Assembly: GCF_000002075.1 (NCBI RefSeq)
Contig: NW_004797602.1
Location: forward strand, 452,977-516,976
Source: Aplysia californica
Taxonomy: Eukaryota
Length of the DNA: 64,000 bases
Direction of reading: 5' to 3'
Under the pieces are notes generated by a model. The model saw only the letters and a program-made list of their open reading frames with translations. It was not told the DNA's origin and searched no databases. This document shows, in pieces, positions 4,463-52,156 of the stretch; positions within the stretch are counted from its first letter, which is position 1; each line of letters begins with the position of its first letter. A program made the position numbers and the translations under genes.

Positions 4463-23338
<18,876 letters not shown>

Positions 23339-24212
23339 ATATTGGCGTTGTTTTTCAATTATGTCAGTTCATTGTTTTTGAAGCTGAGACTTTGTGCTAT
23401 TGAGGCTAGAGAGGTGAGCAGAGTAAGCCTGATTCCTCATTTGGACTTCTCTGTTGACATCAACCCCTTGGCGCTCATATGGCCTTATGCAGTTGCGAGC
23501 GCCGTAAAACCTTACTAAAACTAAAGCTGTGTGTTATCTGAATCGATAACAACAACAGCAGCACCTGGATCTATAACAACAGGATCGATAACAAAAACAA
23601 CTGGATCTCTATAACAACATGAAGCTGTTGGCTTGTGAAGGGTGGCTCAAAAATTCTTTTGAGTTGTAAACTCCTTTGATTAATGCCATGGTTATCATTT
23701 TTTGTTTTTGAAAGATAACTTTTCCCTTTGTTTTATCATGGAGATGATGATCAAAAAACTTCCAGAATCAAGGCACTTGCATTTGTTTTAGACCAGGCTT
23801 TTCGGGAAGGAAAAATGTGAACTTTGGGCAATTATTGTTTACTGTCAGGAGTTTTTATTGTTTACAAGTTTGTGTTTGGTTGATGCCTCTGTTTATTCTA
23901 GACATTGGTAACTGCCATGAGCATGTTGGGAAATGTAAAGTTCTTATAACTCCTTCTGTGTTCGTCTTTTTACTGTTGAAGATGATAACATAGAAAGTTA
24001 TTTTTTGTGCCACCATATAGAATATAATATTTATAATAATATGTATATATAGATCTATATGTTAATTTATGGAGGGAGCTCTGTTATGTTGTTCACTGTT
24101 GCAAGAAAGGTTGAGGTTCTGTCCTGTATTTTCTGTATATTTTATTGAGGTTACTGGAAAGGTTGAGTTTTTTTTTTTCAGAATTAACTTCCATACCTGA
24201 ACTCTATCCTAA

Positions 24213-26870
24213 CTCTTTCAGTACGCATGGGATTCCACAATTTTACGCAGCTGATTTGAGACGGCAAAGGGGTGTTATGTTAAAACTTCTCTCATTCGGT
24301 TAATAATTGATGGATTTGTTTGTGTTAGCACTCAAACTATTCGTAATTGGACATAGAATCACAATATGAGTGAAAATGGTTAGTAACTGTAGCACAAAGT
24401 AGGCAATAGAGGATAAAAGTAGTGAAAAGTGAGAAAAATAACCAAAAATGAGACTGAAATTTTCAACTCACCACAAAAATGCTCGTACAATCCATCGAAT
24501 AGGCAGCAAAGAGTGAAATCTAATCAAAGTTTATCCATTTAGGAAGGTCCAGGCCAAATTTCAACTGTATAGCAGCAAAACTGTTCATTTCACAAGCAAA
24601 TGAAAATTGTCACGAAAACAGACAAAAATGTATCCACAAAGTCCACATCCCTAACAAGTGTCACTGTCCCCCCCCCCCCCCCCGCCCCCAAGCCCTGTAT
24701 TTACATCACAGGGCAAGATGATAGGCCTCAAAGCATGGGGTGGGATGCAAAAATGGCTGGTTTGGGCATCCCTTGCAGTAGAATGAGGTCCTTTTCCTGT
24801 TTGTTGGGGTGTTGCAATGTCGACAAACGCGTGTAAGGCTGGACTTCACTGCAAAATGATTGCTTTTCATTCCAGCCACAGGGTTGTTTGATGGGATGTG
24901 GCCTCTATCATCAGGCTGCTGCTGTTCAATGTCCTCCAGAAGGAGTGCTGCTGTATGAGAGCACATCTCTGAAATCAGATCATGCTTGAATTTCAATAGT
25001 GGCGTTTTCCTACCCTCGGCTTTCATGTGCAGAATGTGGGCATTCACTTGACTGACCTCAAAAATCCAAAAAAAGATTTTTTTCCACCATTTAGTGCTCT
25101 TCCTGGTGTACATGCCGTAGGTTTGGACAGCTTGATCAACCCTGTCGCACCCATTCATGTTGAAATTATACGCGTTTATCATCGATGGTTTTTCGACATC
25201 TTTTACTGTCACCGTGGCAACGGAAGAACTGTTGGAGACAGCAGCACAGGACTTTTTCGCTTTTTTATCTCTAAAAAGAACACAGAGAAGCTGCTTCTCT
25301 CTGTGCAGATACCACTGTATTTCCCTGTGAGCCAGTTTGGCTGTTTTGAGCTCAGCAGGGAAGCCTTTCCGGTTTGCGTTCACTGTGCCGGTGAAGTAAA
25401 ACTGCTTTTCCCTCAGATGATTTAGGAGTTGCATACTGGTGTAGTATCTGTCAGCGTATATATGGTGGCCTTTGACGAGAGGGGACAGGAGTGTTTCAAA
25501 GACTCTCACAGATTGTTGTGCGTCTGCTGTCATGGGGTCGAAGGAAGTCTGTGCGCCAAAGTAAATACGTAGGTTGATGACATAACCAGACTCGCTTTCG
25601 CAGAGACCGAAGGTCTTGACATGGTATTTACTTGGTTTGGTAGCGTTGTACTGCTTGTGAGCCCATCTTCCTTTCCAACCAATGACCATTTCATCCAAAG
25701 AAAGCTCTTGTGTTGGATAATATGCAGCCTGAAATTGCACCAGAAGTGAAGAAACGAACGGCTCAATTTTTGCTTTCCCTTGTGCGTCCAATTCACAGGC
25801 ATGCAGCATCGTGTGAAAAATGTGCTGAAACCGGTCACGACGAAATATTTGCCGAAACCAGGGTGTTGCCATATGTGACAAGTCGGTGTTCCAGTAGTCA
25901 GAGACACTGGGCTTCTTTGTAATCCCCATTGCAATGATTACTGCAAAGAATTTGAAAAGTTCACCTGGTGTGATCTTACGCCACTTTTTGTATACGGAGC
26001 GCTCCGTTGCCGTTGCTGCTCTAGCCTCACATCTTTGATTTCCGTAATCGTTGATGTTTTTACATAGCTCTTCCACAATTTCATCAGTAAAATAGAGCCT
26101 GAAAAAATCAAGAGGCACCATTCCTCTGGTGTCAATATCTGGGTTGATCCCTGTGAATCGAGGGGCGAAACGAAAAGCGTTGTTAGCAGAACCCTCAGTC
26201 ACTTTCTCCCACTCCGGAGCTAAAGGTCTCAACGGAGATCTTGATCTAGATCTAGATCTAGATCTAGATCTGGGCCTGTTATTTCTGTTACTTTGCCCCT
26301 TCCCAATACCCTTTCCCTTGTTTCGAGGCCTGCTAGTAGACTGGCTTGTCACAGGACCAGGTGTTGTTAAACAGTTAGTTCTAGAACTAGAGCAAGAACT
26401 AGATCTAGAAGAAGGGCCAGGCTGGTCATAGTCAGAATCGCTAGAGGATTCATTCCCACCACCATCAAGTTCGATGTCAGACACTTCACTACAGTCACTT
26501 TCTTCATCTAGTAAAGTTTGAAAAAACTGACTAGCTTGTTCAGCAGAAAGCCGCGTTGATCGAGGTCTTGATCCAGACATAATTGAGAGCTAGCACACAA
26601 GCCACGAAAATGTAAACAAATGTAGAAATAAATACTCTGCACAAAACAGCGTTCAAACTGCGTACTCGTAGCGGTACAAAGTGGCCGATAATGGGAAAAG
26701 ACGCTATTTTTACCGCCTTTTAGAATCACTAAACTTGGACTGGAAAATGTTTCGTATTTCTTGTAGTTTTCGTGGCTTGAAATCGGTACCCCGCAAACGC
26801 CATTTAAGTGGCGTGCCGTAAAAACGCGGAGCCACAAACGCCACTTAAGTGGCGTGCCGGATTCAAAGAG
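24213..26870 (-). mobile_element. Full-length piggyBac-superfamily DNA transposon
   Basis: Termini CTCTTT...AAAGAG flanked by identical CTAA (24209-24212, 26871-26874); intact transposase inside; two palindromic subterminal repeats at 26797-26855. Confidence 0.93.
24706..26580 (-). CDS. piggyBac transposase (PGBD4-like), 624 aa, uninterrupted
   Basis: Catalytic DDD motifs LSLDEM, IYADRYYTS and GCDRVDQ; KWWKKIFFW motif; C-terminal Cys/His-rich domain CRHC...CKGC...HPTPCFEAYH; acidic N-terminus. Confidence 0.95.
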   Translation of the reverse strand: MSGSRPRSTRLSAEQASQFFQTLLDEESDCSEVSDIELDGGGNESSSDSDYDQPGPSSRSSSCSSSRTNCLTTPGPVTSQSTSRPRNKGKGIGKGQSNRNNRPRSRSRSRSRSRSPLRPLAPEWEKVTEGSANNAFRFAPRFTGINPDIDTRGMVPLDFFRLYFTDEIVEELCKNINDYGNQRCEARAATATERSVYKKWRKITPGELFKFFAVIIAMGITKKPSVSDYWNTDLSHMATPWFRQIFRRDRFQHIFHTMLHACELDAQGKAKIEPFVSSLLVQFQAAYYPTQELSLDEMVIGWKGRWAHKQYNATKPSKYHVKTFGLCESESGYVINLRIYFGAQTSFDPMTADAQQSVRVFETLLSPLVKGHHIYADRYYTSMQLLNHLREKQFYFTGTVNANRKGFPAELKTAKLAHREIQWYLHREKQLLCVLFRDKKAKKSCAAVSNSSSVATVTVKDVEKPSMINAYNFNMNGCDRVDQAVQTYGMYTRKSTKWWKKIFFWIFEVSQVNAHILHMKAEGRKTPLLKFKHDLISEMCSHTAALLLEDIEQQQPDDRGHIPSNNPVAGMKSNHFAVKSSLTRVCRHCNTPTNRKRTSFYCKGCPNQPFLHPTPCFEAYHLAL

Positions 26871-27871
26871 CTAAATTACTTTTGGGTATCAGTACATCAA
26901 TTTTTTCATGCAACAAATAAGATAAAGATTAAGATGGTTGTTTTCTTTAACATCAATTAGGGATGACCACTGTTCCACAAATTTCTGAAATACATTTCAC
27001 AGCTGGAGGTCTTTATTCTTTCTTTTTTTTGTGCAGTATCTGTATTTATTTATTTTTTTCAATTTCCCTTAAGTTTGAGATTTTTTTCAAAGCCATAACC
27101 GAAAAACCAATCATCTTTGTAAGAAAATCACAGACAGAATGGAAATTAATATTGATCACACAAAGGTTGCATGAGAACTGTGGAATAAGTTTCAGTTATG
27201 GTAAGCCTGAGCAATGTTCTGTTTAATGCAAGTAACGAAACCGGTCTTGATCAAAATCAATGAAATTATTATTGTATCTTTTCTTTACACAAACAAGATG
27301 AGGTCTGTATAGTATATAGCCCTATATTGGGCATGAAAACATTTCGAACATTGTTGGTGAAATAAATGTAATCCAATGAATGCAGCCCCTGAACTAAAAA
27401 AGTTATAGAGCCAAGCTCGTACACATCTGTCTGAGGACTTCATTTTCTAGTCATAAGGTGAACTTCATAAGAGGATTCGCGTGGACCAGTACAAAATATA
27501 AGAGATGTATAGACTGAGGGATGTATGGAAGAGGGAGCATGCCTTTTTTTTTTGTACTGTCGAATTATCCAAGATGGCTACCTATTGTCGAGAAAAAAAG
27601 TGATTGTCTTAGATAGGTAGACATCTTGGATAATGTGATTATAATATTTTAAAAATGTTTGACTGTAGTTTTTTTGTTGTTGCTTGGAATTAATTAACTT
27701 CAAGAGCAAAGCAGTTCATTTTTAGTTTTTAGCTAAATAGATGATTGACTCTAGCTATGGCAGTTCGGATACAAGAGATTGTTGGCCTGGATGTATACAA
27801 TGGCCATAAAGTTTTCATGTTCATATTTTTGGGTTTCCTGGGGTCTGGGGCCCATTTAGTCTCAGCAATTG

Positions 27872-28565: not shown

Positions 28566-30878
28566 CAATTGTCAAATTGAAGACATGTAAAAAGGAAATG
28601 ACTTACATGTATTTATGTCTAACAAAATAATATGCTCAAAAGAGAAAAATATTAGGCCTAAATGAAAATTATATAAATATGTGTGTCGTTGCAGTTGAAT
28701 CAGGCACTCTTCAAATTTTAGGGAACGGAGAAATCAATATTTTTCCGACTGTCGGACGATTGTTATCTAAATTTTTTTTCATGTTTTTTTGACAGACACC
28801 CTTTCTATCCCCTGAAGAACACATTTCCCACAAAATGTATTGTTTTGTAGAATGACAAAAAAATGTATTGTTTTGTAGAATGAGAATAAGTATTACACCT
28901 CACCAGTCTCCAATCTTTGGAGACCATTTTCTCACTTATTTACCTCTCACTAATTTACTTGATAATATCAGGTAACCCGTCGTCTTCTTACATCGCACTG
29001 AAGACCAAAATGGAAAAACAATCAAAGTCACATAATTTCACATTTTGAGAAAAACGAAATTTATAGTTTGAAACACCAGGAAACATCATGAATAACTGTG
29101 GACTGAAATGCTGCTGCTAATATCCATTGTGGGACCATTTTGCAAATGAAAAATAACCATTTTAAGGTACCAGTAAGTGGTAAAATATCTAATATCTTTA
29201 CAGATAATTTTCTAACCTACCCCTCCCCCACCGGACTCTGATCCTTTTTCCTCTGCAAACATTTTCCATGAACTATGAATGAGAAAAATAACCTATAAAA
29301 ATATCTTTAATGCTTTATTGCAAATCAAGTACAAGCAAAGTATGTTTAGGTTTTGCTTAATAGAAGAGCTCAAAACAACTGTAAACATTGAGATAAACTA
29401 CATAATACAAGTGGGAGAACGGAAAATCTCCGTTCTAACAAAAAAGAATGATGCCAAAGCAAAGCACTCCCCTTTTCTCAACAAACTGAGCAAGTAAATT
29501 CAAATCATGTATAAACAAAGGCTAAACTTTAGATTTTAGTGGTTAATTCATCCACTGTATGTAGGTACCACAAACAGAAATTTCAAAGTCCTCTGATTTC
29601 ATAGTTATCTGCACCACCTTATAGAACTTATTATTCTGAGCATTTTGATACCAAAGTTATACATATATATATAGCTTCATTTTTAACAAAGTTATGAACA
29701 TCTGAAGTTGCAGAAAAGTGTTGCATTTTTTAAATTGCGAAATGTCTGCACTTTGGGATGTCATAACATTCTTAAATTTGAATGGACATTCACAAAAACT
29801 TGTAAACACACACCCATGCACATAGAGTATAGAGAACAAGCCCAATTTTTTTCAGGGGTATCATATAACCAGAAGATGGAATTTTGTTGACGTAAACATG
29901 GCTTTTCGACCAAAATGGCAAAAAATACAAGGGGAGGTAAAATTGTGACTTTTTCAGAAACTTTCAGAGACCATTGGGAGAACAAATATTGACTTATCTG
30001 GACACCAAAATGTCAAGCAATTCTAGATCTACAAGTCTATACTGCTCTGATACATGTATTAAAATTGGATCTGATACTGATATTAAAATCTACTGATTTG
30101 AAGCATATATTGAAAATGTCATAATTTTCTGCAACATACAGGCGAGAGCCATACACCAACGGACTCTATCACTGAGTGTCAAAGCACATAACTGAAGCCT
30201 CAAAACATCCAACTGTTGTAAAATACATAATAATAGCAGAATTCATTAATATAAAACCACTTGGAACATGAGTTTGAGGCCCTCGAAGGGCAGCTTGTTT
30301 GATCCAAAAATTAACTCAAAACAGACAGTATTTATTGCTAAACTATCTCATAAGTAAGACCAATTAAAAAAACAACAACCACCAACAACATAACTAGTAT
30401 GGTAGTAAAACAAGCCACTGACATGTCTAATTTATACCAAAGGGAGTCTTAGTAGAACATGACAAGTGATAACCACATAGTGAAGTGTGACAGTAAAATC
30501 CTAATGAAATTTTAGACTAGCTCTACCCTCCTTTGGTCTGAAACAAAAGTCCAGATTCGCTGTCCTAAAAGAAAGTCTTCATTACAGTAGGATAGAATCA
30601 TGTGAAAACAAACCAATGACATAATGTGACAATTATACCGGAGTAAAAGAAATAAAAGGTCCATACTGGTGCCACAGATGAGTCGGACTCTTAATACGAC
30701 TTTACTGTTTTACAAGAGGTGTAACACCAAGAACAATAAACAGATCACCTGAACTGTGAAAATGGAAATCATAGCAAAAAAAACATGGTAAGACATCATG
30801 ACTCATGGACAATGACAGTATGATAGCTTAACTCTCTTGCAAGGTGTTGGGTTGGGATCAATGATCAAAACAAGTCTT

Positions 30879-46401: not shown

Positions 46402-49400
46402 TGAGAGAGGGAGAGAGAGAGAGAGTGAGAGAGAGAGAGAGAGCAAGTCCACGCAAGCCACGCCACTGCAAGCACACGCAGCGGGTAAAGCNNNNNNNNN
46501 NNNNNNNNNNNNNNNNNNNNNNNNNNNNNNNNNNNNNNNNNNNNNNNNNNNNNNNNNNNNNNNNNNNNNNNNNNNNNNNNNNNNNNNNNNNNNNNNNNNN
46601 NNNNNNNNNNNNNNNNNNNNNNNNNNNNNNNNNNNNNNNNNNNNNNNNNNNNNNNNNNNNNNNNNNNNNNNNNNNNNNNNNNNNNNNNNNNNNNNNNNNN
46701 NNNNNNNNNNNNNNNNNNNNNNNNNNNNNNNNNNNNNNNNNNNNNNNNNNNNNNNNNNNNNNNNNNNNNNNNNNNNNNNNNNNNNNNNNNNNNNNNNNNN
46801 NNNCCCACAAACCCTAACATGCAATAATCATTACCTTGTCTAAAACCCTTGTTCATGGGTACTTGTGGCAAGGGAAACTACCCATGAATAAATACAGCTG
46901 GATTAGTCCACAAATGTTTACTTCCCTTGTATTTCTGATTTAACAGGGATCGGATGTAACAGGATTTTTTTCTCTGGTCCCACCATCCATGTTATATCAG
47001 GTTTCCACTGTATTGGTTTTAATTTTCAAGACGGGCAGTTTTATTTTATGATAAACTCACCAAGAGCTGCATTTATTAATAATTACTGGGACCAGACAGA
47101 AACAACTCGCGGGCTGAATATGGCCCCTGGGCCGTAGTTTCCCCATGCTTGGACTACACAAACCATGGCATGACAAACACTTACACTTCTGCAATCACTT
47201 CTCTCGGCAAAATGGGCTCAGCAGACACCAGCTTCTTGTGTTTGTCAACGTCCAGGATGCCGTCTGCGACCTTCAGCACGGGACCGTCCTCCTGTGTGTT
47301 CCCAGGGTCGACACAAGTGTTCACGTCCTCTTCCAACTCTTCGTCCAGCCTGGGAAAGAAAAAGGTCAACCACCACACATAAATAGATTCTTTATAATTT
47401 GACAACCATAACAAATAAGTAATAATAAATTACATTTTTATTAATCCCTTAAGGGCAATTTGGTTTACAATGGCAGCATATATACATGATACAAAAATAC
47501 ATACACATAAATACTACACAATATTACATGAATAGAGAACAATTTCACAATCAATGCTTTGCTAGTCGCCACTGTTTTTTTAGATAGGGTTGTCATGTCT
47601 TGCTTAAGGAAACACCTCAGTGACCACCCATCTGATCCCCATTTCACCGACATTTACTTGACTTTACTCTTGGGTCTAAACTCATTACCCACTTAGCCAC
47701 TGGAGCCCCCCAGACAGCAAAGGCCCCATTTAGAGCTAGAGATAAAGTCAGCAGTGTCTCTCCTTTTGCTTTAGTCACATCATCGTCATGCCGGTATGTA
47801 TCATATGATGTTTTCAGGTGAAGCAAAAATCTGTTTTATATCATGCAGGACATTGTATAAACACAAAATGTTTCCCCAAAACGCCATTTAAGTGGTGATT
47901 TACTAAAATAGGGAACAAAAAATGCTACTTAAGAGGTTGTCCCGAATCAAAGAGTGAACAGGGGTGGACTACTGTTGACATGAGGAAAAACAGGGAAGAC
48001 CGAGAGAAATCTGGAAATGACAAGAGGAGAGTAAAAACAGAGGAGAAGGAAAAGACCTGAGGCCATAAATGTTGATGGTGAGTACAGGTGATAGTACTAT
48101 GCATAACTCTGCAAAGAGGGTCAATTAGTTATTTATTTTTTCCACCCAATGACAATGAGTTTACCTGTTTTCTATTTCTTGGAAATGCTGCCAAATCGAA
48201 TTGATATTCTCTGTTTGGTCCGCGTAACTTGCAGCTGTCCCTACATCTCTGCTGTGTTCACTTGGACTGATGTGCAAGTTTGCAAATTTATCCAAACATA
48301 AGTACACTTTGGAAGAAGGGGCCCTGTGAAAATAAATATTTAAAGACAATAAAATAAATATAATATTAATAATAATAATAATAATAATATATATCAATAA
48401 TAATCATAATAATAATAATAATAATAACAACAGAAAGTGTCAAACAACAAAGTTTCGGTACCCTGTGACTGCTTCAGATAGGTCCAAACATATTTCAATC
48501 CAGCTAAAACATAATAAAAATGTACAAAGAAAGAAGTGTGAAGAAAGATATTTCTACAACTTTATTTTACTCATTTAAAAATGTTTTCCATTTAGGCAAA
48601 TTTGTGTGCGTTGTCTCAATGCTCTAATATCGACAAACTTCCAGGACCTTACTTTGTGTTTGTTTGTTTGTTTAGTAACTTTAAAAAAAAGTTTTTTCAA
48701 TCTGATATGAGAAACAGTCAATGTCACAGTACTTACTCATTTGGTTCATCTAATGCTCTGCGCTTTGGTCGTTTGATAGGGCTACTGCAGGAAGGGACAT
48801 TTATGCTGCAATAAACACAATATATGAGGTACAGGACAGTGGTGTAGTGAAAAACAAATCAGAATTATTATGTGAGCTGTCATTAAGTGAAAAAAAAAAG
48901 ATAAGAATTTTCAAGTGAGATTCAATGAAGGAGAAAAACAATGAACACGGGCGAACCCATATTTGTGATTTAACCAACCGGTCAATGATCAAACCCAGCT
49001 ACTGAAATTGTATCTTGGCATTAGAAATAACAATAGAAAAGCTTAGAAGAATAATAACATGATCAAACCACACATCTCCATTAGCAGCAGCTGTGGCTAT
49101 AGAGCAGAGCTGCCGGGTAACATTTTACACAAGAGTCCTGACATTCTGCAAAAAAACAACATATTAAGCTATTACAAGGTTCCCACTCATCAAGGAGAAA
49201 AAATTTCCAGGCTTTTTCCTGGTTGACGCCTGGATTTTGTAACTATTTTCAAAATGGCTTTTTTAAAAAGATGACAGAGCTAGGGAAGAAGAAATGAAGA
49301 GAAACGCAAGATAAAATTGTAACGTGGGTGGTCACGTTTCCTGTAGTGCCAAGGGCAGGGATTGTTGGGTAACTAACATAAACAAAGGTGTGATGAAAGA

Positions 49401-52156
49401 GGTCTCGACTTAGGGCAAAAAATGGGGGGGGGGGGGAGAGGGTGTAACTTATTGACTGTTGGCTTGACATTTGCAAAAACAAAAGAAACCAAGGGGACAC
49501 GTTGGAAGCCCTTGATTCTGATTGTGCATCACATACACAACACAACGCTGCAACTGATTTTTAAAGTTTCAAACTGGATCTATTTTTGTTTTTTGTTGTT
49601 TTTAAAAGCTTGACCTAAGCTGTCATCCACAACACAAAGGCACCGAAATTTTTAAACACCTTGTCAAAATAATGTTGGCTGTACTCCCAGCTATTGTTTT
49701 TCTAAGGGCACAGCGGCACAGAGTGACTACAAGGCTTTAAGCACAGAGGGTGTTGAAGTTAGATGTAGACTGTTGGGATCTTCCTCTTCCTTACCTACGT
49801 GCCGGGAAGGAGGGGATGGGTTGGGGTAGCCAAACAGAAAATAGCGTCTCCAATACATTTTCATTCATTTTCAAGGTGTTTTAGCGACCGGGAAATCTGA
49901 AAATAAAACTGGATTTTTTCCATTTTCCCGGTTGAATGGGGAACCCTGCTAATAGTTACAAGTCAAACTTTCCTTAGCAGTCACCTCTCCATGACTATCA
50001 CTTGTAAGTCAACTAAATGTCACTGTTCCATGACCCCCTAGCGTTTTTCCTATTTTCTTAACCTGCCCTTAGCGGTTTTTGTTCAAAGCGGAAATGGTCA
50101 GTCACTTTTGTTACAAGTCAGCTTCAAAAATCTGCTCCTAGCAGTCAATTGCTACAAAAGTTTTTCACCAACTCATCTGTGTATATGTTCGGCAGCTCTT
50201 ATGATGTCTGTCAATTTTTATGGATATGACATGGGAAGAGAAAATTAAGATTTCAGCTTTTAAAGTATCTGTTGACTTTATCAAGTCTTAATAAGTGACC
50301 ATAACTCAAGATATTTTTCTGTAGTCTTGGGTGACCCTAATGGACAGGTTCAACAGCACTGAAAAGAAAAATCAAAACCAGACCACATCTGAGCACCCAC
50401 CAATCTTTAACAAAAAGCTAAGACGCCTTGACCGCTATTTCACCCTAGAAGTCCATGCGTCTGGCGGTAACGAATCAACGAAGAGCCTCCGCCGGCAACA
50501 AAATCAATGCCCATGCGGACAGGTAAGTCCCGCTGGAGAAAGCATGCCCAGAACCTCGTAGCTGAAACTGAACTAGGTATGTACTCAAGTGAGGAGCTGA
50601 TTATTTTACACCCCCACCAAATGTGGAAGGCTGCATCATGCAACTTGAAATTAAGCACCAATCTCGTCATCCGCCTCTCATACGGCCCTACTAACCAAAC
50701 GGAAAAGGTGGCGTGCTCGATCTGGCAGTGTCTGCACACCCTCCATCAACGCTCCGAATGTTCCATCCACTTACAGTGGATTCCAGTCCATGCTGGACTG
50801 GCTGGGAACGAGGAAGTTGACAGCATCGCCAAAGAAGCAACAGCGCTTACCCAGACTGACACACCAATCGATTTCTCGACAGCTGAAGCCATCATCCACC
50901 GGTCGACCTGCGTAAAGTGGAAGAGAGAGGCGAAACCCAAACTGTCGTCTGCCCAGCCGCCATCGTACCAGCTTGAGGCTTCGCTCAGATGACAGGACTG
51001 CCAGCTTCTCTCCCAAATGAGAACTGGTGGAAAATCGCCCAGGCTGAGATCATATTTCTACAAAATTGTGCCAGCGGACTACCCAGATCCGTCCTATCAA
51101 GCCTGAACGGAGTTTTTTTTAGTTTTAGTAAGTGTTTTACGACCCTTGCAACACAATGAGGTCAAATAAGTGCCGAAGATTAGAGGTGTTCCAAGAGAGT
51201 AACAAACACAAAAAAGAAGGAGGGGAGATAAAGACGATAGATGTTTGATAGGAAAGAAGAAGCAAACCACACCAGAGCACCCGCCAACCAACCACCTGCA
51301 AGGAGTAGGATGAGACTATGGACCATGTGTTCCTGAAAAGTCTTGCCAACTATCGTGCCAGAACAAGTCTGCTGGGACATTTCAGGGACCCACGTTAAGC
51401 GCTTTCCAAGGACCCCGAGCAAGTGTTGAGTTCCTGTGTGCTGTTGGCATCCCTGACCCTTTATGACACCACAGCGCCAGAAAAGAGAGCAGAGAGAGAG
51501 AGAGAACAAAAAGCTAGTGATAAAAACTCATTCTTTTCTAATGAGTTTTTCCGGCCAGGGACCATGAGCTTGGGACAGTTTACAATTAAATGGTTATTCA
51601 AGTACTGAAAAAAATAAATACAACAGCAACTACAACAACAATGAAAAAACATAAAAACTCACTGCGAAGGGATGCCAGTAAAAAGCGAGGCATTACCCAG
51701 GCCAACCTGGCGCATAGGTACAGCTTGTGTGGCGACCCACGGCATTGTTGTGGGAATGGAATGTTGCCATGACGCTCCCACACCTGGAGCACTGAGGTTG
51801 CTGATTCGGCTGGTCGTCTGAGGAGCAAAAAAAAATAAAATATTTGCTTATTGTTTTGGTTTTGAGTTATTTTTGCTGAAGTAAAATGCCTTCCACAGGG
51901 GAAAAGGGTCAAAGGGAAGGCCATGTGGAACCTGAAGTAGAGTCACAGAGAATGATGTCCAGAAAAGTGGAAAGACAAAAAATATGTCAAGAAGCTAGCT
52001 CAGGAAAAGAAAAAGATATGGAAAATGGTTTTTTTTATATCATGTTCCTGATGAAGCCCTTTACTGGGCGAAACATTGAACCTGTATAAATTTTGAAAAT
52101 TCTACCACTCTCAACCCTTTTTTATTCCTTGCTATTTACAATGATTATGATGATGT

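What the first reader, a model, noticed from the sequence alone, without database searches (positions are those of the whole stretch)
24209..26874. Intact piggyBac with non-canonical CTAA target duplication and barely matching ends
Seen: an uninterrupted 624-aa transposase with DDD triad and C-terminal Cys-rich domain. Both ends are flanked by CTAA rather than TTAA. The TIRs agree only in CTCTTT plus scattered bases (CTCTTTGAATCCGGCA vs CTCTTTCAGTACGCA). Known: piggyBac normally duplicates TTAA, and non-TTAA insertions are a minority. Inference: a young, possibly active element with relaxed target choice and asymmetric end recognition, and a candidate new transposon tool.
Basis: partly seen in the sequence, partly recalled or inferred. 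Interest (0 to 1): 0.75.

Follow-up and report, generated by a model that had tools for sequence, protein, structure and literature searches.

The report
Young piggyBac, one-off CTAA insertion
An intact, low-copy piggyBac transposon in the sea hare genome, present at this site in two samples and absent in a third, sits in a CTAA target that is likely a one-off off-target insertion by an ordinary TTAA-targeting element, and its mismatched ends follow the layout already known from the bat transposon piggyBat.

Summary
Window 24213-26870 is a 2,658-bp piggyBac with an intact 624-aa transposase and CTAA on both sides; the host is Aplysia californica (named protein match). It is young and polymorphic. 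Of 3 contig sets laid, 2 carry the insertion and 1 has the empty site with a single CTAA, and element depth is about 3-4 times flank depth. CTAA is not the family's target. Contig break points show no second CTAA-flanked copy in the two filled samples. In the third, the copies share a 4-mer that differs from CTAA by one letter, inferred to be TTAA; that letter was not read directly. CTAA is among the commonest off-target sites of T. ni piggyBac (about 2-3% of its insertions are non-TTAA). The ends match at 6/6 and 10/13 bases. A core motif plus palindrome is repeated twice on the left end and the right end has no palindrome, as in piggyBat, its closest solved relative. Verdict: a new, probably active member of a known kind; at most a modest tool candidate.

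The parts
24209..24212 (+). Target-site duplication CTAA (right-end side)
   Evidence: single CTAA in the empty-site contig, X7 record 17
24213..24225 (+). Right (3') end, 13-bp imperfect TIR; core motif TACGC at bp 10
24244..24248 (+). Second right-end core motif (bp 32); no palindrome in the 493-bp right end
24706..26580 (-). Transposase ORF, 624 aa: acidic Ser-rich N-terminus, basic RS-repeat linker, DDD core
24718..24858 (-). C-terminal Cys/His-rich domain, H575-C586-C589-C602-C605-H612-C616-H621 (5 Cys + 3 His, piggyBat type)
   Evidence: alignment to 9c0f; conservation; PMC11707139 passage
25144..25695 (-). Catalytic triad D296 (25693-25695), D377 (25450-25452), D479 (25144-25146)
   Evidence: D in 20 of 20 rows
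26771..26852 (-). Two 41-bp subterminal direct repeats of the left (5') end, each a core motif T[AC]CG[GC] followed by a palindrome
   Evidence: (D4)
26797..26814 (.). Inner left-end 18-bp imperfect palindrome; predicted CRD-dimer site
   Evidence: (I17); function by analogy to piggyBat
26838..26855 (.). Outer left-end 18-bp palindrome; predicted CRD-dimer site
26858..26870 (-). Left (5') end, 13-bp imperfect TIR (10/13 identical to the right end)
26871..26874 (+). Target-site duplication CTAA (left-end side)
22446..23338 (+). Context only: last exons of host Vps53; the element lies about 870 bp past the probable stop, on the opposite strand
   Evidence: VPS53_C hit for 22446-22550 and Vps53_N for 9590-9715. 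Exon 23138-23338 has no Pfam hit; it is assigned by frame and position (inference)

Best explanation
This is an intact, low-copy piggyBac of Aplysia californica, polymorphic at this site, that likely targets TTAA like other piggyBacs and landed here in a CTAA site as a rare off-target event. Shown: intact ORF and triad, exact ends, CTAA duplication, an empty site with one CTAA and no footprint in one sample, and several near-identical copies. Inferred from contig break points: the other copies are flanked by TTAA. Predicted by analogy with piggyBat and T. ni piggyBac: transposase dimers bind each core-motif-plus-palindrome unit on the left end through paired C-terminal domains. The palindrome-free right end would be captured by the core motif, and hairpin excision would reseal the site. 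The melted 4-nt target would tolerate a single T-to-C change at low frequency. Present-day activity is likely but untested.
For:: X7 record 17 joins 23677-24209 directly to 26872-27800 (single CTAA). In X1 and X5 the flank contigs end at 24239 and start at 26841. X7 record 23 (26563-26874, depth 191 against flank 63) runs 4 bases past the end with 1 other letter. (k=31 simulation, 40 runs per scenario): 'others TTAA' gave 24239/26841 in 40 of 40 runs and 26874 in 38 of 40. No listed outcome with another CTAA copy gave these values; relatives L004 and L007 have TTAA on both sides, and L003 has TTAA at its right end. T. ni target-contact residues Y283, Y439, N440 and R372 correspond to Y311, Y471, N472 and R404. 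Literature: CTAA and TTTA were the commonest non-TTAA junctions of 2.3% in HeLa (PMC3499692). In S. pombe 96.7% of sites were TTAA, TTAG/CTAA were among the rest, and excision from TTAG left no footprint (PMC3064801). piggyBat end layout: PMC11707139 section 7.
Against: The first target letter of the other copies was never printed: a high-copy SINE filled the loose-end table (24 of 1,359 rows shown). The one other letter of X7 record 23 could lie inside the element, in a row not shown (40 of 239 shown); then X7's copies would be CTAA-flanked. Break points in X1 and X5 do not exclude a minority TTAG copy. Logan contigs drop rare variants. The family is small (a few copies in 3 samples), so a modestly raised off-target rate cannot be excluded. 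The T. ni L416 position is Ala here (3 of 20 rows). The one RNA run shows almost no reads over the ORF core.
Confidence: 0.85

Rival explanations
1. The family has a relaxed or shifted target preference, so CTAA/TTAG is used far more often than by T. ni piggyBac.
For: One of only a handful of copies sits in CTAA, and the empty site shows that CTAA was the true target. The L416-equivalent pocket residue is Ala. Non-TTAA duplications were reported for some mined elements (PMC10813416 passages).
Against: No second CTAA copy in X1 or X5, and one shared 4-mer in X7. Y311, Y471 and N472 are conserved. The L416 pocket holds the second T (PMC7351741 section 11), not the first base that differs here. 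The finding was picked because of its CTAA, so one such case carries selection bias.
Confidence: 0.08
2. The element inserted at TTAA and the CTAA arose later by mutation or assembly error.
For: Non-TTAA flanks of unique copies were attributed to mutation in PMC5381638. Five ORF positions differ from all laid contigs, so the window copy may hold private changes or errors.
Against: Both sides are CTAA. The empty allele in X7 has the window's letters across the junction, and the X1 flank contigs have 0 differences.
Confidence: 0.02
3. It is a domesticated PGBD4-like host gene, as the RefSeq name suggests, or a recently silenced copy no longer able to move.
For: The RefSeq model XP_005102686.2 is named 'piggyBac transposable element-derived protein 4'. 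RNA coverage is very low in X24. Three amino-acid positions differ from the multi-copy contigs.
Against: The site is empty in 1 of 3 samples, both ends and the duplication are intact, and near-identical copies exist elsewhere. The RefSeq model is a chimera with an unrelated upstream ORF. Domestication is excluded; silencing of this copy is not.
Confidence: 0.05

Closest known systems
piggyBat (Myotis lucifugus; PDB 9c0f)
   Same: Best solved match (E 2.8e-50). Same 5-Cys/3-His C-terminal ligand set. Left end has core motif plus palindrome units and the right end lacks the palindrome (against PMC11707139 section 7). Acidic Ser-rich N-terminus with CK2-like sites.
   Different: Two left-end units 41 bp apart, against three units 44 bp apart in piggyBat. 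Different motif and palindrome sequences; 6 rather than 4 identical tip bases. Activity not shown here.
T. ni piggyBac (PDB 6x67/6x68)
   Same: DDD(D) core, 4-bp duplication, conserved target-contact Tyr/Asn residues; known low-rate use of CTAA/TTAG.
   Different: More distant (E 4.6e-28). T. ni has identical 19-bp palindromes on both ends and a different CRD fold.
piggyBac-like elements of structural group SG3 (TIR plus direct repeats), and AcaPBLE of Aplysia californica (PMC5381638)
   Same: The tip CTCTTT fits the reported 6-nt motif. TIR 8-20 bp with a 12-42-bp direct repeat defines SG3. AcaPBLE has five CRD cysteines, as here.
   Different: Whether AcaPBLE is this family is unknown because the supplement could not be read. 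At least two other A. californica transposases exist at 41% identity (P0005, P0035).
Unnamed gastropod and marine-metagenome piggyBacs (P0002-P0021; loci L001-L003)
   Same: 39-51% protein identity. L003 has the same layout: two left-end palindrome units and a right end flanked by TTAA.
   Different: L003's ends match better (12/13). Its left tip and left duplication are not clean, and no ORF of 200 aa or more from ATG was found in it.

Membership tests
piggyBac superfamily (autonomous PBLE) | Single ORF with RNase H-like DDD catalytic core (PF13843) | tested here: met
piggyBac superfamily (autonomous PBLE) | C-terminal cysteine-rich domain | tested here: met
   8 Cys/His ligands aligned to piggyBat, conserved in 17-20 of 20 rows
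piggyBac superfamily (autonomous PBLE) | Short TIRs starting with C and fitting C[CAT][CAT][TGA][TAG][TGA] | tested here: met
   CTCTTT on both ends, 10/13 identity; motif from PMC5381638
piggyBac superfamily (autonomous PBLE) | 4-bp target-site duplication with precise empty site | tested here: met
   X7 record 17, single CTAA
piggyBac superfamily (autonomous PBLE) | TTAA as the family's target | tested here: inconclusive
   This copy is CTAA. Other copies are inferred xTAA with x not C, TTAA being the simplest reading; the letter was not read directly
piggyBac superfamily (autonomous PBLE) | Cut-and-paste activity through hairpin intermediates | not testable with these tools
   Polymorphism and near-identical copies are indirect support only
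piggyBat-like subgroup | Core motif plus palindrome units on the left end only | tested here: met
piggyBat-like subgroup | C1-like CRD fold | tested here: inconclusive
   Ligand pattern matches; the structure job had not finished
Domesticated PGBD gene | Single fixed locus without TIRs or duplication | tested here: not met
   Multi-copy, ends intact, site empty in 1 of 3 samples

The most novel reading that the evidence does not exclude
A natively active mollusc piggyBac whose transposase tolerates non-TTAA targets much more than known members, with a small residue in the thymine pocket, and whose left end naturally has the two-unit arrangement that made engineered piggyBat hyperactive: a ready vector with a wider target range.
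Probability: 0.07. Interest if true: 0.6.

Novelty: new member of a known kind. Interest (0 to 1): 0.23.

Why it matters
As best explained it is ordinary: one more intact piggyBac among 116,216 putatively competent elements already mined (PMC13461360). It has two modest values. It is a natural, polymorphic example of off-target CTAA insertion. It is also a young element native to a neurobiology model animal, with a two-unit left end like the shortened, more active piggyBat ends, so it is a reasonable candidate for a transposase screen. It would matter more only if an assay showed a real shift from TTAA, which is a stated limit of piggyBac tools.

Tried and rejected
No whole genome is held, so a direct census of copies was impossible. 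No RNA holder was listed. The one raw RNA run laid (X24) gave a depth of 0-7 over the element, too low to judge expression. Structure prediction was submitted but was unfinished at 8 collection attempts up, so no fold search was run. Earlier-findings look-ups returned nothing. Supplements of PMC5381638 (too large) and PMC10813416 (108 characters held, no hits) could not be used; they may list this family or its target site. Six literature searches listed no paper on this family by name, which does not show it is unpublished. Rejected: mutated-TTAA origin, domestication, and horizontal transfer (no support: best other homologue 50-51% identity).

Full report
Observation. The window holds CTAA at 24209-24212 and 26871-26874 around a 2,658-bp element, 24213-26870. 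The minus-strand ORF 24706-26580 gives 624 aa without a stop. It matches Pfam DDE_Tnp_1_7 at E 1.6e-71 and zf-Tnp_2 weakly. The best solved relatives are piggyBat (9c0f, E 2.8e-50) and T. ni piggyBac (6x67, E 4.6e-28). The ends are identical at 6/6, 8/10, 10/13 and 11/20 positions. Three end pairs near the ORF pass a 4-bp-repeat plus 6-bp-inverted-repeat test, so the boundaries needed outside evidence.

Host and context. The top homologue P0001 (XP_005102686.2, Aplysia californica) is identical over 77% of the query, and its N-terminus equals window ORF 31731-32270. It is therefore a chimeric gene model of this very locus, and the window is A. californica. The element lies about 870 bp past the probable stop of Vps53 (Pfam hits; last exon assigned by frame). 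Other homologues are at most 50-51% identical; the named ones are mostly gastropod (88 hits among the 8,000 candidates scored).

Population evidence. I laid 3 of the 20 runs that hold the stretch, plus one raw RNA run. X5 and X7 are labelled RNA by guess; their flat depth over intergenic DNA suggests genomic DNA (inference). X1 may be the source of the assembly. X1 and X5 carry the insertion. In X7 one 1,914-nt contig joins 23677-24209 directly to 26872-27800, which is an empty site with one CTAA and no footprint. This fixes the boundaries, shows that CTAA was the real target, and excludes domestication. It cannot tell a never-filled site from a seamless excision. Long element contigs have a median depth 4.2, 3.8 and 3.1 times the flank in X1, X5 and X7 (the tool warns that depth is not copy number, so this is a rough guide). 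Among the 40 of 239 variant rows shown, five ORF positions differ from all laid contigs: 2 synonymous and 3 amino-acid changes at codons 78, 133 and 543, none catalytic. The family is young and small.

Target of the other copies. The loose-end table was swamped by a SINE, so the flanks of other copies were not printed. Contig geometry answers indirectly, since neighbouring contigs overlap by 30 bases (k=31). In X1 and X5 the flank contigs end at 24239 and begin at 26841. In X7 the shared contig runs to 26874 with one other letter. In simulation (40 runs each) 'other copies TTAA' gave 24239/26841 in 40 of 40 runs and 26874 in 38 of 40. Listed outcomes with another CTAA copy gave 24236-24238/26845-26847, or 26870 for the empty case. 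'All TTAG' gave 24242. A TTAA/TTAG mix fits X1 and X5 but not X7 (26873). The other letter in X7 most likely sits at 26871, for three reasons. X1 and X5 contigs match the window over 26563-26870. The first 30 bases are covered by X7 record 22, whose two differences lie elsewhere. At the one variant row shown in the interval (26794), the depth left over for the window's letter equals this contig's depth. The other copies therefore read xTAA with x not C, and TTAA is the simplest reading. This is inference: the letter was not seen, hidden rows could hold an internal difference, and Logan contigs drop rare variants.

Ends. The left end has the motif T[AC]CG[GC] at bp 10 and 51, each followed by a palindrome (bp 18 and 59), in two 41-bp repeats; the motif also occurs at bp 41 and 207. 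The right end has the motif at bp 10 and 32 and no palindrome in 493 bp. piggyBat has the same plan: a core motif at bp 11, 55 and 99 with a palindrome 3 bp on, none on the right end, and four identical tip bases (PMC11707139; section 7, passages and abstract seen). Relative L003 (48% protein identity) repeats the layout and has TTAA at its right end, though its left tip is not clean. L004 and L007 (31-32%) have TTAA on both sides and 11-12/13 matching ends. TIRs of 4-24 bp and duplications such as TTAG and CTAA were reported among mined elements (PMC10813416; passages seen, supplement unusable). Only the first six TIR bases are generally conserved (PMC5381638; passages seen, supplement unreadable).

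Protein. The triad and D482 are invariant in 20 of 20 rows (P0001 left out as the same locus). The T. ni residues that hold the TTAA hairpin and target, Y283, Y439 and N440 (PMC7351741; abstract and sections 11-12 seen), map to Y311, Y471 and N472. V414 and L416 map to C445 and A447; Ala occurs there in 3 of 20 rows (mapping from the sequence alignment, no model obtained). That pocket holds the second T of TTAA, not the base that differs here. The C-terminal domain has piggyBat's five Cys and three His. The N-terminus carries CK2-like sites, which inhibit piggyBac in mammalian cells (10.1101/2022.09.26.509586; abstract only).

Mechanism. Shown: anatomy, duplication, empty site and several near-identical copies. 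Inferred: TTAA at the other copies. Predicted by analogy: dimers on the two left-end units and capture of the palindrome-free right end, as in the piggyBat tetramer (10.64898/2026.07.15.738711; passages seen), followed by hairpin excision and seamless resealing. CTAA use fits known off-target activity: 2.3% non-TTAA junctions in HeLa with CTAA and TTTA commonest (PMC3499692; passages), and 96.7% TTAA in S. pombe with footprint-free excision from TTAG (PMC3064801; passages).

Against this reading. The family is small, so a raised off-target rate cannot be excluded. The decisive letter is inferred. The single RNA run shows a depth of 0-7, with several empty bins in the ORF, so expression is not shown. 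No activity test was possible, and the structure job did not finish.

Novelty. A new member of a known kind. An A. californica element with five CRD cysteines (AcaPBLE) is already described, and a survey of 31,565 assemblies kept 116,216 putatively competent piggyBacs (PMC13461360; passages and first third of the main text seen). I could not check whether this family is among them. Interest 0.23. The bold reading, an active vector with widened target choice, has about 7% probability and would merit 0.6.

Noticed in passing
window 28977, 31731-32270 and 24706-26151: RefSeq model XP_005102686.2 ('PGBD4') is a chimera: it joins an unrelated upstream ORF and a short piece near 28977 to the transposase, replacing its real N-terminus.
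   Followed up: yes
window 47879-47954: Degenerate left end of a related piggyBac, 53 of 76 bases identical and with both palindrome units, followed by TGAA. A possible partner end starting CTCATT lies at 47681 after TAAA, which would make a 274-bp old MITE.
   Followed up: partly
window 24206-24356: Depth is about 40-50 times flank near the right end, with joints skipping 59-78 bp in all three contig sets. This suggests many non-autonomous or diverged relatives sharing the right subterminal region; diverged contigs with 13/193 and 19/189 differences also lie on the element.
   Followed up: no
window 23390-23530: Very high-copy, transcribed SINE-like repeat just past the Vps53 stop.
   Followed up: no
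window 26236-26271: A hexamer microsatellite inside the ORF encodes an RSRSRS run in the basic N-terminal linker; similar repeats occur at about 58780, 59900 and 61090.
   Followed up: no
window 30879-32270 (-): Three adjacent ORF fragments (131-217 aa) with no Pfam hit at cut-off, possibly a broken transposon of another kind.
   Followed up: partly
window 17415-18886 (-) and 50471-50992 (+): Broken non-LTR retrotransposon pieces: RNase H hit for 17418-18308; the others are judged by eye.
   Followed up: partly
L001:599-700, L003:254-330 and L003:3700-3736: A 48%-identical relative in marine metagenomes has two 19-bp imperfect palindromes 42 bp apart on the left end only; L001's left tip is folded back, probably an assembly artefact.
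   Followed up: partly
   Followed up: no
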